Shown piece after piece: positions 6,620 through 61,872 of a stretch of DNA of 64,000 nucleotides. The notes beneath the pieces are model-generated. The model was not told where the DNA came from. It saw only the letters and a list, made by a program, of their open reading frames with translations, and did not search any database. The DNA comes from an uncultured bacterium (GTDB taxonomy: Bacteria; Babelota; Babeliae; Babelales; Babelaceae): the NCBI GenBank assembly GCA_963717435.1, contig OY970332.1, positions 384,001-448,000 of the forward strand, given 5' to 3'. The first letter of the stretch is position 1, and each line of letters starts with the position of its first letter. The translations under genes were made by a program, and so were the position numbers.

Positions 6620-7645
6620 TTAAGCCTGGCGTGATTTCAATAATTCAATCAATTTTTTCAGAAAAGCTTTTGTGTCGTACAATCCTGTAGAAAGGTTTCT
6701 GGGGCCTCTACAAAACCAATTTAACTCTCCCCATGACAAATTATCTTTAATAACCTGTTCTTGAACCTTTTTATGCCACGCTTCTGCCCGACTTAATTTT
6801 TCTTCAACCAACTTTGACGCATTTTCAAAAAAATCTTTTGATATATTATTGGGTAATTTATTTAAAATAAGTTCCATAATGCTGATTAAATTGTTTTTTA
6901 ATTCATATCTAACGTTATAATAATCAAATTGTTTCATACCAGAAAGCAATAATTCACCGAGCTCTTCCAGGCTAAGATCTGTGCTAAATTTAAATAAAAT
7001 ATCAAAAAAGTTATAATCGTATTCTTCGATAGCAAATTTTAAATACGGGGCTGCACCTGCTCCTAAATTTAAAAATTCGCGAGCAATCCCAAAGTGATCC
7101 GGATTTGAAATATTTTTTGGTTTAAGCAATTTTCTACGAAAAAGGCTGTTTAAATATTTCAAGTATTCTGGATCAGATTGTATTTTGTTTTTTGACCAAT
7201 TATATGCCTTGAAATTATATGCCACATAGGGAAGATATGATTTGGTTTGAAATTTAGTTTGATATTTTTTAAGATGCGAATTCAAGATCTCGCCAACAAT
7301 ATAAAGCTTTAATTTTTTATAATTAAGCTCTAAAATTTCAGCAGATTTTTCTTGCACATATTTTTCTGTAATTTTCTTAAATTGGCTGTTGGATGTAAAA
7401 GAATCGAAAGCTGCAAGCAATTCTTCTTCAGATTCAAATCCGGGTTCTAGTACATTAATAAAAGCACAAATTGGATCTTTTATATATTCTGGCAAATCGG
7501 GCGTAGTTTCCGTCATGTTAAAAAAATCTGCAAGCACATATTCTTGCTCATTAATATTTCCCACAAGATCAGTCTCCATAGAGAAAATACCAGGGAAAAT
7601 ATTTGTAAATACTAATAATAAAATTATATAAAATTTAAGTTTCAT
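6620..7645 (-). CDS. Secreted hypothetical protein (helical, possibly degenerate ankyrin-like)
   Basis: 341 aa; signal peptide then METD; segment IAREFLNLGA..PYLKFAI. Confidence 0.65.
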   Translation of the reverse strand: MKLKFYIILLLVFTNIFPGIFSMETDLVGNINEQEYVLADFFNMTETTPDLPEYIKDPICAFINVLEPGFESEEELLAAFDSFTSNSQFKKITEKYVQEKSAEILELNYKKLKLYIVGEILNSHLKKYQTKFQTKSYLPYVAYNFKAYNWSKNKIQSDPEYLKYLNSLFRRKLLKPKNISNPDHFGIAREFLNLGAGAAPYLKFAIEEYDYNFFDILFKFSTDLSLEELGELLLSGMKQFDYYNVRYELKNNLISIMELILNKLPNNISKDFFENASKLVEEKLSRAEAWHKKVQEQVIKDNLSWGELNWFCRGPRNLSTGLYDTKAFLKKLIELLKSRQA

Positions 7646-10183: not shown

Positions 10184-10324
10184 TTAAAGCCCAAGTTTTT
10201 TAAATAGATCTTTAGCGTCTTTAGCGCGAACTAAATTTTTGCCCTTTTTTACGTTCTCAATGGCTTTAAGTGTGCTTTTATTTGGCACGTGAGTGCGTTG
10301 ACACTTATTATTCTTAAAATTCAC
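10184..10324 (-). CDS. 46-aa ORF resembling the C-terminal half of RelB/DinJ antitoxins
   Basis: GTG start with AGGGA SD; manual translation ...HVPNKSTLKAIENVKKGKNLVRAKDAKDLFKKLGL. Confidence 0.5.
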   Translation of the reverse strand: MNFKNNKCQRTHVPNKSTLKAIENVKKGKNLVRAKDAKDLFKKLGL

Positions 10325-10474
10325 AAAAATCCCTATCAAAAATAAAATTATAAAGACTTATTTTTTGACAGGCTCTGAAAAGTTATCCCAAACCTGTACA
10401 CCTACACCACAAACCAGAATCACGCCCACGCAAATAATAATATTTCCCCCCGAATTTTTTTATTACGCCAATTA

Positions 10475-11134
10475 TTAGGCCTGAGCAAAGAAGCCTGCAA
10501 CAATTAAAACAAATAATGAACCATAAGCTACAATAAAAAGCGTGACTTCATTTTTATAATGGACTCCCCTTAGGCCTTCTCTTAATTCGTTCAATTCTTC
10601 TTCTTCTCTTTTTTGTTGGGAAAATTCGAGCGCCTCTTTTTCTGTTTGTTGCTTAGACAAGTCAAGAAAGAATAGCTTAAATTTTCTCAAATTCTCATCA
10701 CCCGCATCATAATGATTTATATGTCTTAATATTTCTGCCAAAGTCTTGTGTGAGATTTTTGCATCTTCTAAATCAATTATACATTTTAATGATTCTTCTA
10801 ATTCCTCTAGCTCATTTGGTTTATTTTTTAATTTTTCCAAGCTATTTAGGAATGATTCTGCGGCTTCTGGCTCAATATACTTGAATTTTTTCACCAGTTG
10901 CTCATAATCAACAACTGGTTTCTCATTTTTTGCAGGATCCTGTTTCTTAGAAAAAAAACTTCTTATCAAAGTATTCTTATTTAGCTTATTATTTAATAAT
11001 AAATTTTGTTTCAAAAAGCTTGAATTGCTAAGCTTTATCTTACTTAAATTTTTCAAAGCTTTTGGCCCAAACATGCTAAAAGTATTAAAACTTAAAAATA
11101 AACTCATAAAAAATAAAGATTTTGCAAAATTCAT
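10475..11134 (-). CDS. Secreted protein with mitochondrial-presequence-like mature N-terminus and C-terminal TM (paralogue 1)
   Basis: Signal ...LSFNTFS, then 45 acid-free basic residues including IRSFFS; shares IEPEAA/IIDLE core with 11181..11834. Confidence 0.75.
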   Translation of the reverse strand: MNFAKSLFFMSLFLSFNTFSMFGPKALKNLSKIKLSNSSFLKQNLLLNNKLNKNTLIRSFFSKKQDPAKNEKPVVDYEQLVKKFKYIEPEAAESFLNSLEKLKNKPNELEELEESLKCIIDLEDAKISHKTLAEILRHINHYDAGDENLRKFKLFFLDLSKQQTEKEALEFSQQKREEEELNELREGLRGVHYKNEVTLFIVAYGSLFVLIVAGFFAQA

Positions 11135-11180
11135 AACTGTTCCTAAAGTATATTTTTAACCAAATTTCTTGAACCCAATA

Positions 11181-11834
11181 TCAATTAGAAATAGATCTTA
11201 GTATTATTAAAAGGCTAAAACCGATCCAGACTCCATACCACCTCTCTCGGTTTTCGGCGCGTTTTTCTTCTTTCAATTTATTTGTCTTTTTATTCTCTTT
11301 TTCTTCTTCTAGTTGACGCTGAGCCTCTTCAGTCTGGTATTTTGACAACTCAAAAATGAATGTCCTAATTTTTCTCAGATTCTTATTTTCTGGGCAATCA
11401 TGTTTTATATATCTCAATATTTCTAACATATTTTTAGGCGATAGGTTTGCGCCTTCTTCCAAATCAATTATGTTTTTTAAATTTCTTAATGCTTCTAACC
11501 CATCTGGTTTATTTTTTATTTCTTCAAAGAAGGCGAGCAATTTTAATGCCGCCTCAGGCTCAATAGAATATCTGAATCTTTCATCTATTTCCTTATAAGT
11601 AATAAAATTTTTGTCTCTGTTAGACTTATGATTCTTAATAGTAGAAAAATCTCTTATTAAAATAAGTGGCTTGGGCCCGATAATATTATTTAAATTATTT
11701 TTTTGATTTAAATAACCTAGATTATTCAGTTTTAATTTATTTAAGCTCTTTAAAGCTTGTGGTCCCCTCAACATAGAAAAACTATTAAAACTTAAAAATA
11801 AACCCGTAAATAACAAAACTTTTGTAAAATTCAT
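11181..11834 (-). CDS. Secreted protein with mitochondrial-presequence-like mature N-terminus and C-terminal TM (paralogue 2)
   Basis: Signal ...LSFNSFS, then MLRG... 41 acid-free residues leading to IRDFST; TM tail. Confidence 0.75.
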   Translation of the reverse strand: MNFTKVLLFTGLFLSFNSFSMLRGPQALKSLNKLKLNNLGYLNQKNNLNNIIGPKPLILIRDFSTIKNHKSNRDKNFITYKEIDERFRYSIEPEAALKLLAFFEEIKNKPDGLEALRNLKNIIDLEEGANLSPKNMLEILRYIKHDCPENKNLRKIRTFIFELSKYQTEEAQRQLEEEKENKKTNKLKEEKRAENRERWYGVWIGFSLLIILRSISN

Positions 11835-11945
11835 AAAGTACCCTGAAGCTAAAAAATTTATTTAATTTAAGTAATTTTACTAGACATACATAATATATTT
11901 TTTCAATAATAAGCAAAGTTATATAGCTATTAAAAGTAATAAACT

Positions 11946-15543: not shown

Positions 15544-15575
15544 AAAATCAATTTTTAAGGTTTAAGGGAAAGTTG

Positions 15576-17213
15576 ATGAATAGTTTTAAAAAAATATTAT
15601 TTTTAATAAGTTTAGCTGCAATAAATTATAACTTAAATGCTTGGATCGCTGAGCTAAGAATAGAAAATGAAACAGAGTATCCCATTGATGTCCATGTTGA
15701 AACTAAAACAACATTTAATGATTATAATATAGAGCATAATAGAATACTTGATCTAAAACCATTGGAATCGGAGAATCTTAAGAAATTCACAATCAAATAT
15801 TCACCTAAGTATTCATCATACTTGTCAGGCAAAATGAGCCCTCTTGATATAGCAAAAAACATTGAAGAGATAGTTGAAGAGCAAAAGAATATTCACGTCG
15901 ATAATAAGTTAAAAATTCAGATAAAAGAAAATAAAGGGTGGACGCCAAAGGTTGGAGGTTATGGCCTTGTCCCTGAAATCAGTACTAATCAATTAAATGT
16001 TGGCACCGTTTCAATAGACGCTGAGGTTACAATCGAGGGCTTCAACCAAAAAACAAGTTTAGGCCATCAAGATTATAAAATAGATCAAAATCTTAGGACA
16101 TTCAAAGACATTGTAAATCTTATCATCCAGGATTATAAAACTAAAAAACTAAATTCTTACTATTATACTGTCACAGTATATAAATCATCCGGAAAACTCA
16201 TGAGACTTAAGCAAGAAGATTTAAATAAAACTTTAAAGGAATTCGGTTTTATTTATCCGGATACCATTGATATTTATTTTCATGAGACAAAGGAAATGCC
16301 TTTAATTAATTTAAGGGCTTCCATCGTATCGTCAGATTACCCCAAAAAGCCAAAAACAGAACAAATTACTATAGATAAATGGGACAGCCTAGAAAAATTA
16401 ATAAGGGTTCTTTCGGATGCTCATCAGGGATTTGCCAGACTAAAAAAAGATAACAATTATCAAATTAAGTTTGGTGACAAGACATATAAAGGTCCACTAA
16501 ATAGGAGTTTAGGCGAATTAAAATTGAGTGACAATGATGTTATAACATTCATATACCCCTTTATAACTATAAAGTGCAATTTAGTTGAAGTAGAACAAGT
16601 CCCTTCTTTCAGACAACCGAATAAAACTATAAAAGATTCAATTTATATTGCTATTGAAGGTGATAAAACCTTTGGAGAATTAGAACAAAAAATTAAAAAA
16701 GAATCTAAGATTTTTTCAAAAACATTTAGTGAATTAAGATCATTAGACAAACTATATTATGTAGAATTTAATGGCAAAAACAGAGCAGAATATGAAATTT
16801 CAAGCGATGAGACATTATATTCGTTGGGCATAAAAGACAATTCTTTAATCATTTTTAACTATTATGTGGAACAAAAATCCACTTCCAAAACTCAAGGACC
16901 CCAAAAATCTGCGCAGCAATTAGCAAATAGCCCGTACTACATACTTGGCCTTCCTGACAAAGCGGATGATGCTCAAATACTTGGTTTAACTGAGGAACAG
17001 TTAAAAAATAAATCTGAAGTAAAAAAAGCATACTATAAATTAGCGGTGATCTGGCATCCCGATAAAAGAACAACTAATGAGATTGCAATAAAGCGTTATT
17101 CTGATCCAGAAGTTTTAAAAGCTATTGGACCCGATCCTGATGGCAAAAAAATTAAAGCTTTGTCAGAAGAAGTGTTTAAGCTTATTTCTAACGCTTATGA
17201 TCGTAACAATTAA
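15576..17213 (+). CDS. Secreted protein with ubiquitin-like repeats and C-terminal J-domain
   Basis: Signal peptide; three beta-grasp-like units ending KTLKEFGF, RSLGELKL, ETLYSLGIKDNSLI; PYYILG...KKAYYKLAVIWHPDK...FKLISNAY. Confidence 0.8.
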   Translation: MNSFKKILFLISLAAINYNLNAWIAELRIENETEYPIDVHVETKTTFNDYNIEHNRILDLKPLESENLKKFTIKYSPKYSSYLSGKMSPLDIAKNIEEIVEEQKNIHVDNKLKIQIKENKGWTPKVGGYGLVPEISTNQLNVGTVSIDAEVTIEGFNQKTSLGHQDYKIDQNLRTFKDIVNLIIQDYKTKKLNSYYYTVTVYKSSGKLMRLKQEDLNKTLKEFGFIYPDTIDIYFHETKEMPLINLRASIVSSDYPKKPKTEQITIDKWDSLEKLIRVLSDAHQGFARLKKDNNYQIKFGDKTYKGPLNRSLGELKLSDNDVITFIYPFITIKCNLVEVEQVPSFRQPNKTIKDSIYIAIEGDKTFGELEQKIKKESKIFSKTFSELRSLDKLYYVEFNGKNRAEYEISSDETLYSLGIKDNSLIIFNYYVEQKSTSKTQGPQKSAQQLANSPYYILGLPDKADDAQILGLTEEQLKNKSEVKKAYYKLAVIWHPDKRTTNEIAIKRYSDPEVLKAIGPDPDGKKIKALSEEVFKLISNAYDRNN

Positions 17214-17271
17214 GCAAATTAGTTTTAGTATTATAAACAAAACAAAGTTTTAGTTTAGTGAAAGAGGATCC

Positions 17272-18639
17272 ATGAAAAATATTAAAAAAATATTATTTTT
17301 AATAAGTTTTGTCCTGTTAAACACAAATATAAATTCAAATATAGACGTCACTGTTAAATTGCAAGGCATTACAGGTGAAGATATAGAGACAAAAAGTTTT
17401 CCAATCTCAGATACGAATACTTTGCAAAACTTCATAAACAAATTCTTTTCTCTATCCAAAAAACTTAACAAATTTGACAAAGATAATTTGTATTTTATGA
17501 AAATTGATGACAATGAAATAATGTACGATCATAGCAAAAATAAACCATTAGCAGATCTTGGTGTACGAAATAATTCTATAATAGTTTTAATATATAATTA
17601 TTCTAGATCAGACAGCTCGCAAAAACCAAAAGCCAAAACCTCTTTTGAAAGTAAAAATATCAAAAAGATAGACGTTACTGTTAAATTGCAACCCATTATG
17701 GGGCAAAATATAGAGACAAAAGTTTTTTCAATCCTACCTACGGATTCTTTGGAGACTTTGATCAATACATTCTTCTCGCTATCGGAAGCATTTGATAAAT
17801 TTGAAGAATATCTTTTGTATGATATTACAATTGATGGCAATCGAATAGATTATACTTATTATAACAAAAATAGATCATTAGCAGATCTTGGCGTACAAAA
17901 TGATTCTACAATAGTTTTAAAATATTATGATAATTCGAGATCAGGCAGCTCGCAAAAACCAAAAGCCAAAACCTCTTTTGAGAGCAGAATAACCGTTTAT
18001 GTAACATTGATAGAAAGAGTGGGGGCAGCCGCTGTAACAAAAGAGAATAAAATTTATAAAATTTCAAATCAAAAAAGCTTAAGGGATCTGCTTAATGCTT
18101 ACTCATCAAAATCTTCAATTTGGGATTATATAAAATCAGCAAACATGCCTTACTCAATTTATGTTGATGGCCGCCTAATAACTCAATATGATTACTCAAA
18201 AACTTTAGACGCTTTGGGTGTAGAAGACGATTCAAAGATAAATATTGAATATGAAGGCGTTTCCGAAAAACCGCGCGCCCAAAGACCTTATGAATATTAT
18301 CCTAAACAAGAACAGCCACAAAAAACTCAACAACCTGCGCAGCAATTAACAATTAGCCCATACTACATACTTGGCATTCCTGATAAAGCAGGTGATGCTC
18401 AAATACTTGGTTTAACACGAGAGCAGCTAAGAGATAAATCTGAAGTTACAAAGGCTTACAGAAAATTAGCGCTGATCTGGCACCCCGATAAAAGAACAAC
18501 TAACGAGATTGCAAACAAACGTTATTCTGATCCAGAACTTTTAAAAGCTATTGGACCCGATCCTGATGGCAAAAAAATTAAAGCTTTATCAGAAGAGGTG
18601 TTTAAGCTTATTGCTAACGCTTATGATCGTAACAATTAA
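17272..18639 (+). CDS. Secreted 3x ubiquitin-like + J-domain protein (copy 1)
   Basis: Units ending KPLADLGVRNNSIIVL, RSLADLGVQNDSTIVL, KTLDALGVEDDSKINI; HPD J-domain. Confidence 0.85.
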   Translation: MKNIKKILFLISFVLLNTNINSNIDVTVKLQGITGEDIETKSFPISDTNTLQNFINKFFSLSKKLNKFDKDNLYFMKIDDNEIMYDHSKNKPLADLGVRNNSIIVLIYNYSRSDSSQKPKAKTSFESKNIKKIDVTVKLQPIMGQNIETKVFSILPTDSLETLINTFFSLSEAFDKFEEYLLYDITIDGNRIDYTYYNKNRSLADLGVQNDSTIVLKYYDNSRSGSSQKPKAKTSFESRITVYVTLIERVGAAAVTKENKIYKISNQKSLRDLLNAYSSKSSIWDYIKSANMPYSIYVDGRLITQYDYSKTLDALGVEDDSKINIEYEGVSEKPRAQRPYEYYPKQEQPQKTQQPAQQLTISPYYILGIPDKAGDAQILGLTREQLRDKSEVTKAYRKLALIWHPDKRTTNEIANKRYSDPELLKAIGPDPDGKKIKALSEEVFKLIANAYDRNN

Positions 18640-18697
18640 GTAAATTAGTTTTAGTATTATAAATAAAACAAAGTTTTAGTTTAGTGAAAGAGGATCC

Positions 18698-20065
18698 ATG
18701 AAAAATATTAAAAAAATATTATTTTTAATAAGTTTTGTCCTGTTAAACACAAATATAAATTCAAATATAGACGTCACTGTTAAATTGCAAGGCATTACAG
18801 GTGAAGATATAGAGACAAAAAGTTTTCCAATCTCAGATACGAATACTTTGCAAAACTTCATAAACAAATTCTTTTCTCTATCCAAAAAACTTAACAAATT
18901 TGACAAAGATAATTTGTATTTTATGAAAATTGATGACAATGAAATAATGTACGATCATAGCAAAAATAAACCATTAGCAGATCTTGGTGTACGAAATAAT
19001 TCTATAATAGTTTTAATATATAATTATTCTAGATCAGACAGCTCGCAAAAACCAAAAGCCAAAACCTCTTTTGAAAGTAAAAATATCAAAAAGATAGACG
19101 TTACTGTTAAATTGCAACCCATTATGGGGCAAAATATAGAGACAAAAGTTTTTTCAATCCTACCTACGGATTCTTTGGAGACTTTGATCAATACATTCTT
19201 CTCGCTATCGGAAGCATTTGATAAATTTGAAGAATATCTTTTGTATGATATTACAATTGATGGCAATCGAATAGATTATACTTATTATAACAAAAATAGA
19301 TCATTAGCAGATCTTGGCGTACAAAATGATTCTACAATAGTTTTAAAATATTATGATAATTCGAGATCAGGCAGCTCGCAAAAACCAAAAGCCAAAACCT
19401 CTTTTGAGAGCAGAATAACCGTTTATGTAACATTGATAGAAAGAGTGGGGGCAGCCGCTGTAACAAAAGAGAATAAAATTTATAAAATTTCAAATCAAAA
19501 AAGCTTAAGGGATCTGCTTAATGCTTACTCATCAAAATCTTCAATTTGGGATTATATAAAATCAGCAAACATGCCTTACTCAATTTATGTTGATGGCCGC
19601 CTAATAACTCAATATGATTACTCAAAAACTTTAGACACTTTGGGTGTAGAAGACGATTCAAAGATAAATATTGAATATGAAGGCGTTTCCGAAAAACCGC
19701 GCGCCCAAAGACCTTATGAATATTATCCTAAACAAGAACAGCCACAAAAAACTCAACAACCTGCGCAGCAATTAACAATTAGCCCATACTACATACTTGG
19801 CATTCCTGATAAAGCAGGTGATGCTCAAATACTTGGTTTAACACGAGAGCAGCTAAGAGATAAATCTGAAGTTACAAAGGCTTACAGAAAATTAGCGCTG
19901 ATCTGGCACCCCGATAAAAGAACAACTAACGAGATTGCAAACAAACGTTATTCTGATCCAGAACTTTTAAAAGCTATTGGACCCGATCCTGATGGCAAAA
20001 AAATTAAAGCTTTATCAGAAGAGGTGTTTAAGCTTATTGCTAACGCTTATGATCGTAACAATTAA
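18698..20065 (+). CDS. Secreted 3x ubiquitin-like + J-domain protein (copy 2)
   Basis: Identical to 17272..18639 except DALGV to DTLGV. Confidence 0.85.
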   Translation: MKNIKKILFLISFVLLNTNINSNIDVTVKLQGITGEDIETKSFPISDTNTLQNFINKFFSLSKKLNKFDKDNLYFMKIDDNEIMYDHSKNKPLADLGVRNNSIIVLIYNYSRSDSSQKPKAKTSFESKNIKKIDVTVKLQPIMGQNIETKVFSILPTDSLETLINTFFSLSEAFDKFEEYLLYDITIDGNRIDYTYYNKNRSLADLGVQNDSTIVLKYYDNSRSGSSQKPKAKTSFESRITVYVTLIERVGAAAVTKENKIYKISNQKSLRDLLNAYSSKSSIWDYIKSANMPYSIYVDGRLITQYDYSKTLDTLGVEDDSKINIEYEGVSEKPRAQRPYEYYPKQEQPQKTQQPAQQLTISPYYILGIPDKAGDAQILGLTREQLRDKSEVTKAYRKLALIWHPDKRTTNEIANKRYSDPELLKAIGPDPDGKKIKALSEEVFKLIANAYDRNN

Positions 20066-24823: not shown

Positions 24824-25858
24824 TCAAACCTCGTTGTTGCTCTTTTCTAATATTCTATCAAGCTGGTCAGAGAGTTCTCTAAGATCTAAGCTATAAGAAT
24901 AGCTCGATAGGGATTTTTTTATCGGTAAATTGTCTAGTAAGGCAATTAATTCTGCATCAGAAAGATCACTTAATGTTTTTTCAAGGTAGGTAAAAATTTC
25001 TTTCGTTGAAGAAAGTCGCCCAATAAATCCATATTTATTGTAAAGCCCAATTGATTCAAATTTTTGTATTGCAGCAAATAATAATAATTTACAATTAGCT
25101 ATTGAAGGGACTATAAGAGTACCTTGCTTAATTGGAAGAGAAATTCTCGCAGATTGTAATGCAGAAGACTTAGTAGAAACCTTTCTGCAAAAAAGGTGTT
25201 TAGCATATAAATTTTGGGAATTGCGTATTTGATTACCAAAATATTCCAATATCTTTGGAGGAATTTGCTGAATATCTGGTGTATGTATTCCTGCTAATAA
25301 TGCATGCTCTTTTTTTTCAGGAGCAAATGTATGCAAATATTTGATAAATTCTTCGTCCGTTTCATTTTGTGGGTACAAATGTCCGAATTTGTATTTAAAA
25401 TACTCATACATAATTTTTAAATTACGAACAATAAGTATATATCGTGTTCTATTCACGTAATAATCCACCACATTCATTAACTTATTTGTATGAGTGCTAA
25501 ATTTTTTTGCTTGCGGCCCACAGTATATTATTTCTTCTGATAACAAATTTTTTATAGCCATAGCTAATACTAAAGGATTAACTTCTGCTTGCTCTTTATC
25601 ATCACACGACAATAAAATAATTGGATTTATTTCGTTCAAAGCATTATAGCAATCACATAGAGAATCTAATTCAGTTGATAAACAGTGTAATTTTTGAGCA
25701 CGATATTGCTCATCATCAGCTGGAAGTAATAATTTGGAGAATGCCGCTTCTTGTTCTTGTACTTGCAAATCAACGTTAGTTGTATTGTCTTGTTCCATGC
25801 AACAGCCTGTCCTTGCTGTACTTATTGCTATTAACGTAACCATAACAACATAGTTCAT
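24824..25858 (-). CDS. Secreted hypothetical cargo protein
   Basis: 344 aa; signal peptide then MEQD. Confidence 0.65.
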   Translation of the reverse strand: MNYVVMVTLIAISTARTGCCMEQDNTTNVDLQVQEQEAAFSKLLLPADDEQYRAQKLHCLSTELDSLCDCYNALNEINPIILLSCDDKEQAEVNPLVLAMAIKNLLSEEIIYCGPQAKKFSTHTNKLMNVVDYYVNRTRYILIVRNLKIMYEYFKYKFGHLYPQNETDEEFIKYLHTFAPEKKEHALLAGIHTPDIQQIPPKILEYFGNQIRNSQNLYAKHLFCRKVSTKSSALQSARISLPIKQGTLIVPSIANCKLLLFAAIQKFESIGLYNKYGFIGRLSSTKEIFTYLEKTLSDLSDAELIALLDNLPIKKSLSSYSYSLDLRELSDQLDRILEKSNNEV

Positions 25859-35458: not shown

Positions 35459-36529
35459 ATGAAAAAAGTAATATTGATTTTTAGTTTAGTTATCCCGACT
35501 AGTTCGATCAAAAGTATGGATAGACTTACCAATATCAATAACAAAATAGAATCTAAAAAAACAAAAGTTTTAGCTATTCCAGATGCAAATGACATGGGCA
35601 GTGAAGCCGATTATATCGCAGAGATCTTGGGTGAAAATCAAGTCAGAGTAAAAAAAGTGTACAACCCAAAATGGCCTGACTTGGGGCAAGATAAATGCAT
35701 AAAATATTTGAAATATGAAATTGACACTTCTAATAAAACAGAAAAAATTATAATTCATGCAACGGGACAAGGCACCGCCACTGCTTTAAATTATCTTGGA
35801 GACGATAAAGATGCACATAAAATTGATGGGTTAATTTTAGAATCTGTAATCGCAAGTGGCAATCAATATATAATAGATCTTCTAAAGTCATCCAACTCTA
35901 CATTTGTAAATTGGCCGTTGGCATATTACTGGTTGCCATATATTTCAATGGTCAGATGCTTTGTTCCATCATATTCACCATCTGGCAAACAGGCTATCAA
36001 ATCTATTAGGTCGATACCAATAAATATACCCGTTATAATTATCAACACCAAAAGAGATACTCAGGCATATGATGCCGCATCTGCGTTATATTATGGTCTA
36101 AAAGAACATGGTAACTATGTATATTTAATTGGCGACTCAAAGACAAGAAGTGTACGACTTATCGAATCTCTTGAAGAAAAAAATCTTATTCAAAGTATTT
36201 TGAAAAATCATAAATTAATTAAAGGCAAAAAGAAGCAGGAAGAAACAGATTTAAGCGTGACTAAACCAGACCGCAGACTATCCAAAAAGATTTATGATGA
36301 TCTGCTTTCTAAAGAATATAAACATGAAGGAATAAAGCTCCTGGTTATTTCTGCCATCGTTGTCATTGTCGGGTCAGTTTTAATAATAATAGTTTGTAAA
36401 GTTTTAATAAAAGTAATGGAAGAAGATACATTTCCAGATCATATTGATTCGACAACACTTGATGAAAAATTCTTAGAACAAGAAAAACTTTTAGATCAGT
36501 CTATTCTATTTTTAAAAAAGGTGGGGTGA
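35459..36529 (+). CDS. Secreted degenerate alpha/beta-hydrolase-like protein with TM segment
   Basis: IIIHATGQGTATALNY, IDGLILES, IPVIII; no Ser in the elbow. Confidence 0.65.
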   Translation: MKKVILIFSLVIPTSSIKSMDRLTNINNKIESKKTKVLAIPDANDMGSEADYIAEILGENQVRVKKVYNPKWPDLGQDKCIKYLKYEIDTSNKTEKIIIHATGQGTATALNYLGDDKDAHKIDGLILESVIASGNQYIIDLLKSSNSTFVNWPLAYYWLPYISMVRCFVPSYSPSGKQAIKSIRSIPINIPVIIINTKRDTQAYDAASALYYGLKEHGNYVYLIGDSKTRSVRLIESLEEKNLIQSILKNHKLIKGKKKQEETDLSVTKPDRRLSKKIYDDLLSKEYKHEGIKLLVISAIVVIVGSVLIIIVCKVLIKVMEEDTFPDHIDSTTLDEKFLEQEKLLDQSILFLKKVG

Positions 36530-36550: not shown

Positions 36551-37330
36551 ATGAAAATACCATTAACAATTTTGATTTTTGCTATCAGTTTAAACTTAAT
36601 GGGAATGGATAATAATGTTTCTAAAAATCAACAAGAAATAGTTAATTCTACTTCTGATCAGTTATTTACAGATATTAACCGTCTACACAGCTATGCGCAT
36701 ATACCCAAAGAGCTTAAGAATTTAAAGAAAAAATTAAATTCTGAATTTATGAAAGAAGCTAAAATTAACGATTTAGTTTCATACATTTATTATCCTAGTA
36801 TAGTTATCGGCGGCCATTCTGAAGTAGAAGCGGAAGGAATTTGTGCTGATATTGATTTTTTTAAAAAAACAAAGTTATTAGACCACAGATTGCGTAAAAT
36901 TCGTAGAGCAGCGTCTTCAGAAATGAATTTCCCATTTTTTCGTTATGTTATTGCAGTAACTCCAGAACAACTGGCAAAATTAAGAGAAAATATCAGCGAA
37001 AGCACTCCAGGCCATTGTGCTTTTGCTTCGCTTACAAAACTTTCAAAAAATTGTAATTATAATGTGCCATTTTTATTTAAACTACCGCCGCCATTGGCCT
37101 CTGGGTTATACCTACACTGTGCAAAAGCCTTGGGATCAAAAAGAATTTCCAAAATAGAATTTTACGGCAATGAAAATCGGATAAAAAATCTAATAATATT
37201 ACCAGGAGTTCTTACAGACTCTATTGTTATATTAGGAGTGACAGGCATACTAGTAGTAATAATTGTTACTACTGTGTTATTAAGCAACATAGATACAAAT
37301 AGTACTTGCTCAATCGAAGAATATCAATAA
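36551..37330 (+). CDS. Secreted hypothetical protein with C-terminal TM
   Basis: Signal then MDNN; hydrophobic tail. Confidence 0.65.
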   Translation: MKIPLTILIFAISLNLMGMDNNVSKNQQEIVNSTSDQLFTDINRLHSYAHIPKELKNLKKKLNSEFMKEAKINDLVSYIYYPSIVIGGHSEVEAEGICADIDFFKKTKLLDHRLRKIRRAASSEMNFPFFRYVIAVTPEQLAKLRENISESTPGHCAFASLTKLSKNCNYNVPFLFKLPPPLASGLYLHCAKALGSKRISKIEFYGNENRIKNLIILPGVLTDSIVILGVTGILVVIIVTTVLLSNIDTNSTCSIEEYQ

Positions 37331-38185: not shown

Positions 38186-38893
38186 TTACTTACTATTTAA
38201 GCTAATTGCCTCAATCTCAACATGATCTTGATAATTGTGCTCGTTTATTGCCAGCTCAATATATGGTGGATATTTTTGTATCGTTGTTACGCCACAGGAT
38301 ACTAGAAAACTTTTTAAAAATCTTATCCCATCAAGATAAGACTTAGCAGGAGATTTAAGCTCTACTTCTATAAAAGTGCCCATTAATTTCATGTGTTCCG
38401 GTTCTGAAAATGTATCAAAAACCATCTCTATCTTTGATCCTCCATGTAAAATATCATATTTAATTCGTCGTTTTTTTAATTTAATTTTTTCACTGGAAGT
38501 TGTCCCGTATCCCAGATTTTGTAAAATCGCATCCATAGTTTCTGTGTTTTCTATTTTCACTTCATGTTCAATAACTGCGCCTGCAGATCGCTTTTTTAGA
38601 GTAATAAACGAACCTTTTGGCGTTTTGCGCAAGCGAAGATAATTGGACATTTTTTTATATCCGTCCAATTCTATTTTGGGTATGCAACTTGGCCCCATAA
38701 AATATGTTTCGGACATCTCAACAGTTGTGGGTTCATTTGCTTCTAATATTTTTTGCAGCGTGGCCGATTGGCCAGGCAAAATCTTAAATTTTAGTTCTAT
38801 TTCCTGGGGTTCATTAGAGTTATTGGGCTCATTTAAATCCATGCAAAAAGACGAAGTAGAACAAACTAAAAGCGAGAAAATATATTTTTTCAT
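38186..38893 (-). CDS. CYTH-domain (class IV adenylate cyclase/triphosphatase family) protein with signal peptide
   Basis: EIELKF, LRLRK, ITLK, EHEV, LGY, KKRR, FIEVE. Confidence 0.8.
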   Translation of the reverse strand: MKKYIFSLLVCSTSSFCMDLNEPNNSNEPQEIELKFKILPGQSATLQKILEANEPTTVEMSETYFMGPSCIPKIELDGYKKMSNYLRLRKTPKGSFITLKKRSAGAVIEHEVKIENTETMDAILQNLGYGTTSSEKIKLKKRRIKYDILHGGSKIEMVFDTFSEPEHMKLMGTFIEVELKSPAKSYLDGIRFLKSFLVSCGVTTIQKYPPYIELAINEHNYQDHVEIEAISLNSK

Positions 38894-51235: not shown

Positions 51236-52609
51236 ATGAGGATTACAAATACTTTATCGAAGAATCTTGCGTTAACTTTACTTGTGTTTGCGCCGCAATT
51301 ATTTGCAATGCAAGGCACGCTGGACACATCATTTAATCCAACTGGAACACCTCCCGGCTCAGTCGTCACACCAATTCCCGGCAGTTCAAGTAGCCAAATA
51401 AACTCAATAGCAATACAATCCAATGGGCAAATTGTCGCAGGGGGATCTGCGCGCATAAGTAGCAACCCTGAATTTACACTAGCAAGATATAACACCAATG
51501 GAACTCTGGACACCAGTTTTGGCAGTAACGGCATTGTTATTACCGCAATTGGCATTGGCGGCAGTGAGATATTCTCAATATCGATACAATCTAATGGACA
51601 AATTGTCGCAGGGGGACAGGCAAATATAAGTGGGGCACAAACATTTGCATTGGCTAGATATAACACCAATGGAAGTTTAGATAATAGTTTTGGTACCAAT
51701 GGCGTTGTCACCACTCAGATTAGTGGAAACACAGGTGGCTCAATATCCTCAATAGCGATACAAGCCAATGGGCAGATTGTTGCCGGTGGATATGCAACCA
51801 TAGGCGGCAATCACGAATTTGTACTAGCAAGATACAACACCAATGGAACTCTGGACACCAGTTTTGGCACTAATGGCATTGTCACTACAGAAATTGGCAG
51901 TTCAGATAGCAATATATATTCAGTAGCAATACAATCTAATGGGCAAATTGTTGCTGGCGGAGATGCAAACCCAGGCGGCAACTTTGAATTTGCACTAGCA
52001 AGATATAACACCAATGGCAGCTTGGACACGAGCTTTGGCACTAATGGTATTGTCACTACCAAAATTGGCAGTTCAGATAGCATAATACATTCAATAGCTA
52101 TACAAGCCAATGGTCAAATTGTTGCTGGAGGAGGTGCAACCATAGGCAGCAATGACGAATTTGCATTAGCAAGATTTAACAGCAATGGCAGCTTGGACAC
52201 CAGTTTTGGCAGCAATGGAACTGTTACCACCCCAATAGGCGGATCTAGCATCGACATAGCTTCAATATCCATGCAATCGGATGGCAAAATTGTCGCTGTC
52301 GGATATAATATAGACTTTGGCTCAACGCCTTGTGCATTGGCACGATACAATACAAATGGCAGTTTGGACACCAGTTTTGGTACCGGCGGGATTGTGACAA
52401 CTACTAATGAGCCTTTTGGGAAAATGACTTCGATAGCAATACAATCTAATGGACAAATTGTTGCCGGCGGAGTGGACTCAACAGGAAGCAATTTTGCACT
52501 GGCTAGATACAATGCAAGCACAAGTTTGACACAAAGTTCGCTGACGCTTGCGCTAAAAAACAAGTACTACGCTAATGGTAGTGGAGCAAAACAAGGCCCC
52601 GTATTTTAA
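51236..52609 (+). CDS. Secreted delta-60-repeat (beta-propeller) protein
   Basis: About 7 repeats of SIAIQSNGQIVAGG...FALARYNTNGSLDTSFG.NG.VTT. Confidence 0.88.
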   Translation: MRITNTLSKNLALTLLVFAPQLFAMQGTLDTSFNPTGTPPGSVVTPIPGSSSSQINSIAIQSNGQIVAGGSARISSNPEFTLARYNTNGTLDTSFGSNGIVITAIGIGGSEIFSISIQSNGQIVAGGQANISGAQTFALARYNTNGSLDNSFGTNGVVTTQISGNTGGSISSIAIQANGQIVAGGYATIGGNHEFVLARYNTNGTLDTSFGTNGIVTTEIGSSDSNIYSVAIQSNGQIVAGGDANPGGNFEFALARYNTNGSLDTSFGTNGIVTTKIGSSDSIIHSIAIQANGQIVAGGGATIGSNDEFALARFNSNGSLDTSFGSNGTVTTPIGGSSIDIASISMQSDGKIVAVGYNIDFGSTPCALARYNTNGSLDTSFGTGGIVTTTNEPFGKMTSIAIQSNGQIVAGGVDSTGSNFALARYNASTSLTQSSLTLALKNKYYANGSGAKQGPVF

Positions 52610-61380: not shown

Positions 61381-61872
61381 ATGTTGAAAAAATTACTCTT
61401 ATTTGCGACAGTTTTTATTTCAGCACAAGTTTATGGTATGACTGGCAGCACTTGCTGTGAGTGCAACAAATTCTTTACTGACATAGACAAGTTTGAAAAA
61501 CACTTTGAATATACCTCAATTTGTTTCGAAAATTATGTCAAAAAAATGGAAAATCGGTTCGCTGATTGGTTTGGTCCAAACTCAAAAGAAGTGCAGGAAT
61601 TTCGACAAAATATTGAAAACTATAAGAAAGACCCTAGTCAAAAGAGGACTGGCGGTACCTGCTGCGAGTGCAACAAAAAATTTGCTGACAACGACAAATG
61701 GGCAAAACACTTTGAATACCCATCGATTTGTTCCGAAAATTATCTCAAAAGAATGGAAATTTTGATAGTAGATAATTGGGATCCAAATTCACAATATATG
61801 CGGGAGTTTCGACAAGATATTGAAAACAAAAAGAAAGCCTACAATCAACAAAAAGAAAGTAGTAAAAATTAA
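61381..61872 (+). CDS. Secreted protein with two C2H2/C2HC-like zinc-finger repeats
   Basis: CCECNKFF.....F..H......C present twice; signal then MTGS. Confidence 0.7.
   Translation: MLKKLLLFATVFISAQVYGMTGSTCCECNKFFTDIDKFEKHFEYTSICFENYVKKMENRFADWFGPNSKEVQEFRQNIENYKKDPSQKRTGGTCCECNKKFADNDKWAKHFEYPSICSENYLKRMEILIVDNWDPNSQYMREFRQDIENKKKAYNQQKESSKN

What the first reader, a model, noticed from the sequence alone, without database searches (positions are those of the whole stretch)
10475..11834. Bipartite targeting: Sec signal followed by a host mitochondrial presequence
Seen: both paralogues have a 20-aa signal ending FS, then Met and 41-45 residues rich in K/L/S/N with no D/E, ending IRSFFS or IRDFST, then an acidic helical core and one C-terminal TM. 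The presequence-like parts have diverged but keep their composition. Established: mitochondrial presequences are basic, acid-free, amphipathic and cleaved at R-x-[FLY]-[SA] (R-2/R-3) motifs by MPP/Icp55. Inference: effectors exported by the bacterium, then imported by host TOM/TIM23 and anchored in the inner membrane. This is the best candidate here for an undescribed system.
Basis: partly seen in the sequence, partly recalled or inferred. Interest (0 to 1): 0.85.

Follow-up and report, generated by a model that had tools for sequence, protein, structure and literature searches.

The report
Secreted proteins with presequence-like leader
Two neighbouring orphan genes of an uncultured protist-infecting (Dependentiae) bacterium encode exported proteins whose new front end, once the export signal is cut off, resembles a mitochondrial import signal; this fits delivery into host mitochondria but does not prove it.

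Summary
Two tandem minus-strand paralogues (219 and 217 aa, 42% identical) each have a 20-residue signal peptide ending FS, then Met, then 45 or 41 residues without D/E (net +8/+6) ending IRSFFS/IRDFST.

The genome is a 1.2 Mb Babeliales (Dependentiae) chromosome.

- **The signal|Met junction is not special to these genes.** About 110-134 exported proteins here share it, mostly as signal|ME or MD, and so do two relatives. The class is enriched in ankyrin and WD40 proteins, so it looks host-directed.
- **The basic acid-free leader is rare.** Only 5 of 134 such proteins have one: this pair and an unrelated tandem trio elsewhere in the genome.
- **The leader is the best conserved part** in both groups, and it ends in [RK]-x-[FY].

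Points against a presequence:
- Amphipathicity is no higher than in shuffled leaders.
- Lysine far outnumbers arginine.
- One paralogue has a C-terminal membrane segment that should stop Sec release.
- No presequence predictor could be run.

Verdict: probable Sec-exported, host-directed effector candidates with a functional second leader. Host mitochondrial import is the leading specific reading (about 0.3) but is unproven.

The parts
11181..11834 (-). Upstream paralogue P0002 (217 aa plus stop)
   Evidence: ORF and translation. 42% identical to P0001.
10475..11134 (-). Downstream paralogue P0001 (219 aa plus stop)
   Evidence: ORF and translation.
11906..11933 (-). Promoter-like site (TTAATA, 16 nt spacer, TATTAT) 72 nt upstream of P0002. 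No terminator-like site between or after the genes, so the pair is probably co-transcribed.
   Evidence: Consensus scan only. This is a weak basis: 15 promoter-like sites were found against 9.0 +/- 2.9 in shuffles.
11841..11844 (-). SD-like AGGG before the P0002 start codon
   Evidence: Sequence. Class-wide SD statistics.
11141..11144 (-). SD-like AGGA before the P0001 start codon
   Evidence: Sequence. No SD-like word precedes the Met21 codon.
11775..11834 (-). P0002 signal peptide, residues 1-20, ending S-F-S before Met21
   Evidence: Matches the genome-wide junction: -3 I/L/S, -2 F/L/Y, -1 S/C/A/G, +1 Met. 70% identical to the P0001 signal.
11075..11134 (-). P0001 signal peptide, residues 1-20, ending T-F-S before Met21
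11652..11774 (-). P0002 Met21 plus basic acid-free leader, residues 21-61
   Evidence: 41 residues without D/E, with K5 R2.
10940..11074 (-). P0001 Met21 plus basic acid-free leader, residues 21-65
   Evidence: 45 residues without D/E; residues 21-62 are net +8.
11640..11657 (-). P0002 I60-R-D-F-S-T65: R-x-F-S at the end of the leader
   Evidence: It is the only [RK]-x-[FY] in the leader. Chance in shuffles 0.07.
10949..10966 (-). P0001 I57-R-S-F-F-S62. R58 is the only Arg of the leader.
   Evidence: It is the only [RK]-x-[FY] in the leader. Chance in shuffles 0.16.
11238..11651 (-). P0002 charged helical core, residues 62-199 (residues 64-199 net +3)
   Evidence: Composition. Conserved blocks shared with P0001.
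10559..10939 (-). P0001 charged helical core, residues 66-192 (residues 63-192 net -7)
   Evidence: Composition. AlphaFold2 gives helices at low confidence, pLDDT 46-74 for residues 91-219. No Pfam, NCBIfam, PDB or Atlas match.
11184..11237 (-). P0002 short C-terminal hydrophobic tail, residues 200-217
   Evidence: Detected only with a 15-residue window, not with 19.
10478..10558 (-). P0001 C-terminal membrane segment, residues 193-219
   Evidence: Mean Kyte-Doolittle value of 1.6 or more over 19-residue windows.

Best explanation
The two genes encode fast-evolving, lineage-restricted proteins of an uncultured Babeliales (Dependentiae) intracellular parasite. I read them as members of its host-directed secretome.

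Proposed mechanism, step by step:
1. Translation starts at residue 1. This is shown indirectly, by SD statistics and by conservation.
2. The 20-residue signal takes the protein through Sec (inferred).
3. Signal peptidase I cuts at the order-wide junction [I/L/S]-[F/L/Y]-[S/C/A/G] | Met (inferred from the motif).
4. The exported protein therefore begins with Met21, followed by a 41-45 residue basic, acid-free leader. This leader is conserved better than the rest of the protein, so it is under selection as a signal in its own right (shown).
5. The protein leaves the bacterium by the only envelope-crossing machinery found, two secretins of a type II/type IV-pilus-like system, or by vesicles (inferred).
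6. In the host the leader acts as a second sorting signal. The most likely specific target is the TOM/TIM23 import route of host mitochondria, with processing near the conserved R-x-F/Y. The hydrophobic C-terminus serves as a membrane anchor (hypothesis).

My odds:
- Sec export with cleavage before Met21: about 0.8.
- Host-directed: about 0.6.
- Leader functional: about 0.75.
- Whole chain ending in mitochondria: about 0.3, which is the confidence given for this explanation.
For: Taxon and biology:
- Transketolase next door has its best matches (60% identity and below) in Dependentiae/Babeliales MAGs.
- The genome is 1,198,203 bp at 34.6% GC.
- It has two secretins, one intact T2SSE ATPase, one signal peptidase I and no VirB4.
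- Published relatives: type II secretion was the only secretion system found, and 79 of 126 ankyrin proteins carry signal peptides and were judged secreted into the amoeba (PMC4378268, passages).
- Two gspD copies occur in all TM6 genomes studied (PMC4776705, passage).
- Chromulinavorax makes the host mitochondrion wrap around it, and 44% of its CDS carry signal peptides (PMC6561590, passages).

The signal is real:
- An SD-like word precedes residue 1 in 60 of 134 class members. It precedes the internal Met in 4 of 134. For comparison, 417 of 1032 other starts and 140 of 1653 random internal Met codons have one.

The class:
- The strict signal|Met class holds 109 of 613 ORFs with an h-region. 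The relaxed class holds 134.
- Met scores 109 at a background frequency of 0.016, against His 17 at the same frequency.
- The junction is also seen in relatives G004 (41 of 171 h-region ORFs in 400 kb) and G040 (37 of 213).
- Ankyrin occurs in 15 of 123 class members scanned, against 4 of 150 signal-like ORFs without the Met (Fisher p 0.003). WD40 occurs in 9 of 123.
- Both secretins, two Omp85 proteins and two periplasmic binding proteins fall in the no-Met class.

The leader:
- 5 of 134 class members have 32 or more acid-free residues with net +6 to +8 (over the first 35 residues) after the Met. These are this pair and a tandem trio at genome 705090-706786.
- Identity for signal / leader / rest is 50-70 / 37-50 / 21-38% in this family. 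In the trio it is 52-70 / 47-74 / 26-30%, where the rest is not alignable (blastp E above 0.07).
- All 7 leaders (4 family members plus 3 trio members) end in [RK]-x-[FY].
- The only two outside relatives found among 1.84 billion representatives keep the same layout.
- The six proteins with a net charge of +4 in the first 18 mature residues are this pair, the trio and one Arg-rich thioredoxin-domain protein. They break the class norm, whose mode is -1.

C-terminal anchors do not exclude host exposure:
- 9 of 109 class members have a C-terminal anchor. One of them is an AAA ATPase, which needs ATP, and one is an LRR protein.
Against: - The maximal hydrophobic moment of the leaders is not above shuffles of the same composition. 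The fraction of shuffles reaching the observed value is 0.14-0.80 for P0001-P0003; only P0004 stands out.
- K:R is 7:1 and 5:2, N+Q make up 19-31% of the leaders, and Ala is nearly absent. From recall, this is unlike textbook Arg/Ala/Ser-rich presequences, though AT-rich protists are said to use Lys/Asn-rich ones.
- The R-x-F/Y ending has a 7-24% chance in each leader and occurs in 10% of background 11-mers.
- The leader is better conserved than the cargo. From recall, this is the opposite of ordinary mitochondrial presequences.
- A net charge of +4 just after the signal should hinder Sec export by the positive-inside rule (recall).
- The 27-residue hydrophobic tail of P0001 should act as a stop-transfer in SecYEG. 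Type II substrates are normally soluble.
- A second T2SSE-type ATPase gene is in pieces.
- A relative grows in a vacuole, which would add another membrane to cross (PMC4378268, passage).
- No such leaders occur among 55 and 62 signal|Met proteins sampled in G004 and G040.
- AlphaFold2 gives no confident structure (mean pLDDT 48; residues 1-94 below 50).
- No presequence or signal-peptide predictor was available.
Confidence: 0.3

Rival explanations
1. Bacterial envelope protein. The signal is cleaved and the C-terminal hydrophobic segment stops transfer. The protein stays in the bacterial inner membrane as a type I protein with its N-terminal domain in the periplasm. The basic leader is a flexible spacer that binds anionic envelope material and never meets the host.
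For: - P0001 and the relative P0003 have clear C-terminal membrane segments.
- From recall, type II secretion substrates are normally soluble.
- The leader region is predicted with very low confidence and only short helices, as expected for a disordered spacer.
- 84 of 109 class members have no membrane segment, so the anchored ones may be a different functional group.
Against: - The signal carries the junction of the ankyrin/WD40-enriched class, whereas housekeeping envelope proteins (2 secretins, 2 Omp85, 2 binding proteins) lack it.
- The relative P0004 has no anchor, and the P0002 anchor is marginal.
- A plain spacer would not be the best conserved part, nor would it keep a distal R-x-F/Y.
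- Another anchored class member is an AAA ATPase, which would be useless in an ATP-free periplasm.
Confidence: 0.25
2. Host-directed effector whose leader has another job. It could be a second-step export or translocation signal for crossing the outer membrane or the vacuole membrane, in the manner of the conserved leaders behind the signal peptides of oomycete RxLR or Plasmodium PEXEL effectors. Or it could be a basic membrane- or lipid-binding region that places the protein on some host membrane together with the C-terminal anchor.
For: - A conserved leader with fast-diverging cargo, seen in two unrelated tandem clusters, is the signature of modular effector leaders. [quoted passage not shown]
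- Amphipathicity is not above chance.
- Lys-rich stretches bind acidic lipids (recall).
Against: - Only 5 of 134 proteins in the class carry such a leader. It therefore cannot be the general export signal of this secretome.
- The two leader families share no significant sequence similarity (HMM E 0.16), so no common recognition motif beyond composition and [RK]-x-[FY] is evident.
Confidence: 0.25
3. Not exported at all. Because the flank after the hydrophobic N-terminus is far more positive (+4 in 18 residues) than the flank before it (+1), the segment inserts as an N-out anchor. The basic stretch and the helical domain stay in the bacterial cytoplasm. In P0001 the C-terminal segment then spans the membrane back outward.
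For: - The charge distribution, together with the positive-inside rule (recall).
- The six +4 proteins are outliers in a class whose early mature regions are mostly neutral or negative.
Against: - The hydrophobic core is short and fails the 19-residue membrane-segment threshold.
- The c-region matches the cleavage-type junction of more than 100 other proteins.
- P0004 would then be anchored by this weak segment alone.
Confidence: 0.08
4. No specific function. The acid-free stretch is low-complexity Asn/Lys/Leu drift of an AT-rich genome in young orphan genes.
For: - The genome is 34.6% GC, with K, N, L, I and S abundant.
- Orphan status.
- Across the whole proteome there are 32 hydrophilic acid-free runs of 41 or more residues.
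Against: - The stretch is conserved above the rest of the protein in four family members from at least three genomes.
- The same design recurs independently in the trio.
- It is rare at this position, in 5 of 134.
Confidence: 0.05

Closest known systems
Helicobacter pylori VacA, p34 subunit
   Same: It is made with a Sec signal and leaves the bacterium by a Sec-dependent route. The N-terminus exposed after signal removal then directs the protein through TOM to the mitochondrial inner membrane (PMC2861713, listing abstract; PMC10458073, passage).
   Different: - The VacA signal is 32 uncharged residues, not a basic presequence-like stretch.
- VacA is an autotransporter toxin that enters cells from outside.
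- There is no sequence similarity: nothing was found by Pfam, PDB or profile searches.
Mitochondria-targeted injected effectors: EPEC Map and EspF, Anaplasma Ats-1
   Same: These are bacterial proteins that carry N-terminal mitochondrial targeting sequences and use the host import machinery (PMC10458073, passages).
   Different: - They are delivered by type III or type IV secretion directly from the bacterial cytoplasm, so they need no Sec signal in front.
- This genome shows no VirB4.
- No homology was detected.
Sec-delivered effectors with eukaryotic sorting signals behind the signal peptide (phytoplasma SAP11-type, Liberibacter Sec-delivered effectors)
   Same: The layout is a Sec signal peptide followed by a mature N-terminal region that is read by the host cell. 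This rests on recall; only listing abstracts of phytoplasma and Liberibacter effector papers were seen.
   Different: Phytoplasmas have no outer membrane, so Sec export is enough for them. Here an outer membrane, and perhaps a vacuole, must also be crossed. The sorting signals described for those effectors are mainly nuclear (recall).
Signal peptide plus conserved leader of eukaryotic pathogens' effectors (oomycete RxLR, Plasmodium PEXEL)
   Same: A signal peptide is followed by a conserved leader of tens of residues, then by a rapidly diverging cargo, and the genes sit in tandem families (PMC3207932, listing abstract; the rest is recall).
   Different: - The producers are eukaryotic.
- Those leaders have a defined short motif.
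- Here the shared features are composition and an [RK]-x-[FY] ending.
Toxoplasma gondii MAF1-type mitochondrial tether
   Same: It is a secreted parasite protein with a signal peptide and a membrane anchor. It engages the host mitochondrial import machinery to hold mitochondria at the parasite compartment (PMC7999873, listing abstract only).
   Different: It comes from a eukaryotic parasite, has a different architecture and has no presequence (recall). The tether reading for the present proteins is speculation.

Membership tests
Sec-type (signal peptidase I) signal peptide | A short basic n-region, a hydrophobic core of about 7-15 residues, and small residues at -1 and -3 before the cut | tested here: met
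   - Both proteins have K5, an uncharged hydrophobic core, and T-F-S or S-F-S before Met21.
- This matches the genome-wide junction statistics.
- The test was heuristic only; SignalP was not available.
Sec-type (signal peptidase I) signal peptide | Translated from the upstream start codon, not an annotation artefact | tested here: met
   - An SD-like word precedes residue 1 in 60 of 134 class members and the internal Met in 4 of 134.
- The signal is 50-70% identical among four family members.
Sec-type (signal peptidase I) signal peptide | Neutral or negative early mature region compatible with export (recalled rule for Gram-negative bacteria) | tested here: not met
   Net charge is +4 in the first 18 residues after the cut for both proteins. 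The class mode is -1.
Mitochondrial matrix-targeting presequence (TOM20/TIM23, MPP-processed) | Net positive charge with no acidic residues over 20-60 N-terminal residues | tested here: met
   45 and 41 acid-free residues, with net charges of +8 and +6 over the stretches counted (residues 21-62 and 21-63). This holds only if the signal is removed first.
Mitochondrial matrix-targeting presequence (TOM20/TIM23, MPP-processed) | Amphipathic helix | tested here: inconclusive
   - The best 11-residue window has a hydrophobic moment of 0.71, just above the background 75th percentile of 0.66.
- It is not above shuffles: the fraction of shuffles reaching it is 0.14 (P0001) and 0.25 (P0002). The 18-residue windows are at or below the shuffle mean.
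- AlphaFold2 shows short helices at pLDDT about 30.
Mitochondrial matrix-targeting presequence (TOM20/TIM23, MPP-processed) | Arg at -2 or -3 of a processing site, R-x-(F/Y/L)-(S/A) (recalled consensus) | tested here: inconclusive
   - R-D-F-S in P0002 is an exact match. R-S-F-F-S in P0001 is a near match.
- All 7 leaders of the two groups end in [RK]-x-[FY].
- The chance per leader is 0.07-0.24.
Mitochondrial matrix-targeting presequence (TOM20/TIM23, MPP-processed) | Positive call by trained predictors (TargetP, MitoFates), and import in cells or in vitro | not testable with these tools
   No such predictor and no eukaryotic reference set were available.
Type II secretion substrate | Sec- or Tat-exported soluble periplasmic intermediate, with the secretion machinery present | tested here: inconclusive
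   - Machinery is partly present: two secretins and one intact ATPase, but a second ATPase gene is fragmented.
- P0001 has a C-terminal membrane segment, which argues against a soluble intermediate. P0002 is marginal.
Known mitochondria-targeted bacterial toxins and effectors (VacA, Map, EspF, Ats-1) | Sequence homology | tested here: not met
   - No Pfam or NCBIfam family.
- No PDB sequence match below E 0.18.
- Only two anonymous relatives among 1.84 billion representatives.
Babeliales signal|Met secretome class (defined here) | h-region, then -3 I/L/S, -2 F/L/Y, -1 S/C/A/G, +1 Met | tested here: met
   The junction is T-F-S|M in P0001 and S-F-S|M in P0002. P0002 is in the strict class. P0001 is only in the relaxed class, because the residues after its Met are less hydrophilic.
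Babeliales signal|Met secretome class (defined here) | Acidic or amide residue at +2 (E 52, D 16, Q 7 of 109) | tested here: not met
   +2 is F in P0001 and L in P0002. F occurs at +2 in 2 of 109 class members and L in 3 of 109.
Complex-plastid bipartite leader (signal peptide plus transit peptide) | Aromatic residue at +1 of the signal cleavage site (recalled rule for heterokont-type plastids) | tested here: not met
   +1 is Met. Phe or Leu comes only at +2.

The most novel reading that the evidence does not exclude
Babeliales may mark their host-directed secretome with a Met at +1 of the signal-peptidase site. Every Sec-exported effector would then enter the host with a eukaryote-style Met-X N-terminus. 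Most begin Met-Glu, Met-Asp or Met-Gln, as cytosolic proteins do, and this may spare them from N-degron recognition of a raw cleavage end.

Within this system a small subset begins Met-Phe or Met-Leu followed by a conserved basic leader. This subset is the present pair and the trio at genome 705-707 kb. These would be true mimics of nuclear-encoded mitochondrial precursors, engaging TOM/TIM23. With their C-terminal anchors they might even act as arrested-import tethers that pull host mitochondria around the parasite, as seen by microscopy in a cultured relative.
Probability: 0.15. Interest if true: 0.85.

Novelty: new variant of a known kind. Interest (0 to 1): 0.55.

Why it matters
Dependentiae are a widespread phylum of energy parasites of protists. 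Nearly half of their proteins carry signal peptides, yet no effector has a known target and no route into the host is established. One cultured member visibly reshapes the host mitochondrion with no known factor responsible.

If the leader is a working presequence, these would be the first Sec-dependent bacterial effectors with a classical mitochondrial import signal. They would also be concrete candidates for that remodelling.

Independently of that, the signal|Met junction is enriched on ankyrin and WD40 proteins and missing from housekeeping envelope proteins. It gives a simple sequence rule for picking out the host-directed secretome of this phylum. It also raises a testable idea about why a cleaved effector should begin with Met.

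Tried and rejected
Family and homologue searches:
- Pfam and NCBIfam on both proteins gave only sub-threshold noise.
- The word-indexed search of 5.8 billion proteins returned only the query itself.
- A search of 40 relatives' genomes with P0001 found none.
- The exhaustive profile search found two anonymous relatives, at E 4e-9 and 4e-4.
- Locus searches with the four-sequence alignment in genome and metagenome contigs found none, so no genomic context for the relatives could be obtained. Cluster look-up gave short, unnamed contigs.
- A word-indexed search with the trio's leader returned only itself.

Structure:
- AlphaFold2 on the four-sequence alignment gave pLDDT 48, too poor for a fold search, so none was run.
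- The ESM Atlas look-up and the PDB sequence search gave nothing usable.

Ideas tested and rejected or left open:
- The leaders of this pair and of the trio being homologous is not supported (HMM E 0.16 and above; cargo blastp E above 0.06).
- Met21 as an alternative start codon is rejected by the SD statistics.
- The signal|Met junction as an artefact of over-long ORF calls is rejected for the same reason, and by its presence in two other genomes.
- By eye only, with no tool: there is no twin-arginine motif, no lipobox Cys at +1, no PTS2-like nonapeptide and no classical K-K/R-x-K/R nuclear signal in the leaders.

Additional file 9 of PMC4378268 lists the signal-bearing proteins of a cultured relative and might already show the junction.
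- Complex prediction, sequencing-run tools and RNA tools were not used, because no question here needed them.
Full report
**What is there.**
On the minus strand lie two ORFs: 11181-11834 (P0002, 217 aa) and 10475-11134 (P0001, 219 aa). They are 46 nt apart. Each is preceded by an SD-like word. One promoter-like site lies upstream of the first gene, and no terminator-like site lies between or after them. They are 42% identical, E 5e-42.

Each protein has these parts:
- A 20-residue hydrophobic N-terminus ending TFS or SFS, followed by Met21.
- A stretch of 45 (P0001) or 41 (P0002) residues without D/E. Its net charge is +8 / +6 over residues 21-62 / 21-63, and it is rich in K, N, L and S.
- An ending of IRSFFS or IRDFST.
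- A highly charged helical region, net -7 in P0001 and +3 in P0002.
- A hydrophobic C-terminus that is a clear membrane segment in P0001 and a marginal one in P0002.

**Whose genes.**
The window is positions 384001-448000 of a single-contig genome of 1,198,203 bp at 34.6% GC. The adjacent transketolase has its best matches, at 60% identity and below, in Dependentiae/Babeliales MAGs.

The genome has two secretins, one intact and one fragmented T2SSE-type ATPase gene, one signal peptidase I and no VirB4. This agrees with published Dependentiae genomes:
- Type II secretion was the only secretion system detected, and two gspD copies occur in all genomes studied (PMC4378268 and PMC4776705, passages).
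- In one cultured member, 79 of 126 ankyrin proteins have signal peptides and were judged to be secreted into the amoeba.
- In another, 44% of CDS carry signal peptides, and the host mitochondrion wraps around the replicating bacterium (PMC6561590, passages). The present genome differs from that strain in size and GC.

**The Met after the signal is a hallmark of the lineage, not of these two genes.**
I made a crude proteome from the longest ORFs of 80 aa or more with overlaps removed, giving 1166 ORFs. Of these, 613 have an N-terminal hydrophobic core.
- Met frequency rises to 0.042-0.060 at 4-8 residues beyond the core, against a background of 0.016.
- 109 ORFs fit 'small residue, then Met, then a hydrophilic stretch'. 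For His, which has the same background frequency, the count is 17.
- The junction reads -3 I/L/S, -2 F/L/Y, -1 S/C/A/G, +1 Met, +2 E (52) or D (16).
- A relaxed hydrophilicity filter gives 134 ORFs.
- This is not a start-codon artefact. SD-like words precede residue 1 in 60 of 134 and the internal Met in 4 of 134. Controls are 417 of 1032 other starts and 140 of 1653 random internal Met codons.
- The same enrichment appears in 400 kb samples of two relatives. In G004 (same family) Met scores 41 among 171 cores. In G040 (another family of the order) it scores 37 among 213.

To see what the junction marks, I ran Pfam on both classes.
- Signal|Met class: 123 members scanned. These came from the 129 (of the 134) with at most one membrane segment; 6 were dropped because they cross a 20 kb locus border. 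Ankyrin appears in 15 and WD40 in 9.
- Signal-like ORFs with no Met nearby: 150 scanned of 213 (226 before 13 border drops). Ankyrin appears in 4. This class also holds both secretins, two Omp85 proteins and two periplasmic binding proteins.
- The Fisher test for ankyrin gives p = 0.003.
- Only the 25 commonest families per class are reported by the tool, so single housekeeping members in the Met class cannot be excluded.

I found no mention of this junction in print:
- 'methionine' has 0 occurrences in PMC4378268 and PMC6561590.
- 'signal peptide' has 0 occurrences in PMC4776705.
- Full-text searches turned up nothing. Supplements could not be read.

**The basic leader is what is unusual.**
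In the class, the acid-free run after the Met has a median length of 1 residue. Only 5 of 134 have 32 or more acid-free residues and a net charge of +6 to +8 over the first 35 residues. These are P0001, P0002 and three tandem genes at genome 705090-706786. Weaker cases are a 100-aa protein (24 residues) and an Arg-rich leader on a thioredoxin-domain protein (19 residues).

Conservation points to function:
- In this family, identity for signal / leader / rest is 50-70 / 37-50 / 21-38%.
- In the trio it is 52-70 / 47-74 / 26-30%, and the cargo is not alignable (blastp E above 0.07).
- The only relatives among 1.84 billion representative proteins are P0003 (E 4e-9) and P0004 (E 4e-4). Both keep the signal, the Met, a 35-40 residue acid-free basic leader and a K/R-x-F-S ending. 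P0003 also has the C-terminal anchor and P0004 does not.
- The leaders of the two clusters are not demonstrably homologous (E 0.16), so the design has arisen or been kept at least twice.
- All seven leaders end in [RK]-x-[FY], and in five of them this is the only such triplet. The chance per leader is 0.07-0.24, which gives roughly 0.03 jointly for two independent families.

**Does it look like a mitochondrial presequence?**

For:
- Its position at the new N-terminus, its length, positive charge, lack of acid, hydroxylated and Leu-rich make-up, and a distal R-x-F/Y-S.
- A Met-Phe or Met-Leu start, where the rest of the class has Met-Glu or Met-Asp.
- The biology of a relative that remodels host mitochondria.

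Against or undecided:
- Helical amphipathicity is ordinary. The best 11-residue window is 0.71, against a background 75th percentile of 0.66. The fraction of shuffles reaching the observed value is 0.14-0.80 for P0001-P0003.
- Lys dominates Arg, Asn/Gln are abundant and Ala is scarce.
- The leader is more conserved than the cargo.
- AlphaFold2 is uninformative.
- No trained predictor could be run.

**The route is also a problem.**
- A +4 charge right after the signal runs against the recalled rule for Sec substrates.
- The hydrophobic tail of P0001 should arrest it in the bacterial inner membrane.
- Type II substrates are normally soluble.
- A vacuole membrane may intervene.

On the other hand, 9 of 109 class members combine the signal|Met junction with a single C-terminal anchor. 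They include an AAA ATPase and an LRR protein, which make sense only on the host side. Whatever carries this class outward therefore seems to cope with anchors.

**Verdict.**
- The pair most likely encodes Sec-exported, host-directed effector candidates (about 0.6).
- They carry a selected second leader (about 0.75).
- Host mitochondrial import is the best specific proposal for that leader. I put the whole chain at about 0.3.
- Rivals: a bacterial envelope protein (0.25), an effector whose leader serves another step or target (0.25), an N-out inner-membrane anchor (0.08) and no function (0.05).

It is not a member of any known effector family. It would work like the presequence-bearing injected effectors (Map, EspF, Ats-1), and like VacA p34 in being Sec-dependent. 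If true, it is a new variant of a known kind.

Noticed in passing
Genome-wide. In the window, for example, 6620-7645 (-), 24824-25858 (-), 35459-36529 (+), 36551-37330 (+), 38186-38893 (-), 51236-52609 (+), 61381-61872 (+): About 110-134 exported proteins have Met as the first residue after the predicted signal-peptidase cut, usually followed by Glu or Asp. The class is enriched in ankyrin and WD40 proteins. The junction is missing from the secretins, Omp85 proteins and binding proteins. It is also present in two relatives' genomes. It was not found in the three Dependentiae papers searched.
   Followed up: yes
L133:5090-6783 (-), which is genome 705090-706786, outside the window: Three tandem genes share a well conserved signal|Met-Phe plus basic acid-free leader of 32-35 residues ending R-K-Y or R-R-F. 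Their remaining sequences are not alignable to each other, and they have no Pfam family.
   Followed up: yes
L110:13858-14796 (-), which is genome 253858-254799: This is a signal|Met protein with an Arg-rich, acid-free 19-residue start and a thioredoxin domain. It is another presequence-like candidate, of a more textbook Arg-rich kind.
   Followed up: partly
L155:1531-2583 (-), which is genome 1141531-1142586: The layout is signal|Met, then an AAA ATPase domain, then a single C-terminal membrane segment. An ATPase behind an export signal makes sense only where ATP is available, that is, on the host side.
   Followed up: partly
Window 15573-20065 (+): Three tandem ORFs of about 455-546 aa each have a C-terminal J (DnaJ) domain. 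The two that could be classified have signal-like N-termini. They are possible secreted co-chaperone mimics aimed at host Hsp70.
   Followed up: partly
Window 10187-10339 (-): A 51-aa ORF just downstream of the pair matches only the C-terminal end of the RelB antitoxin family (E 5e-4, below the cut-off). It is probably a remnant of a toxin-antitoxin gene.
   Followed up: partly
L112:17400-19146 (-), which is genome 297400-299146: The second T2SSE-type secretion ATPase gene is split into at least three ORFs of 282, 86 and 150 aa, with stops in the family match. It is either a pseudogene or an assembly frameshift. This bears on whether type II secretion is intact.
   Followed up: partly
Window 51236-52609 (+), and genome 497478, 1057017, 1060209, 1061756: This is a multi-copy family of proteins of about 460-480 aa. 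All begin, after the signal, with the same Met-Gln-Gly-Thr/Ser-Leu-Asp-Thr-Ser/Thr-Phe-Asn-Pro/Gln-Thr-Gly stretch.
   Followed up: no
Genome 618258-619286, 638304-639332, 349531-350544: Two identical copies and one near-identical copy of a basic segment of about 340-aa ORFs turned up in the acid-free-run scan. They are probably copies of an insertion sequence.
   Followed up: no
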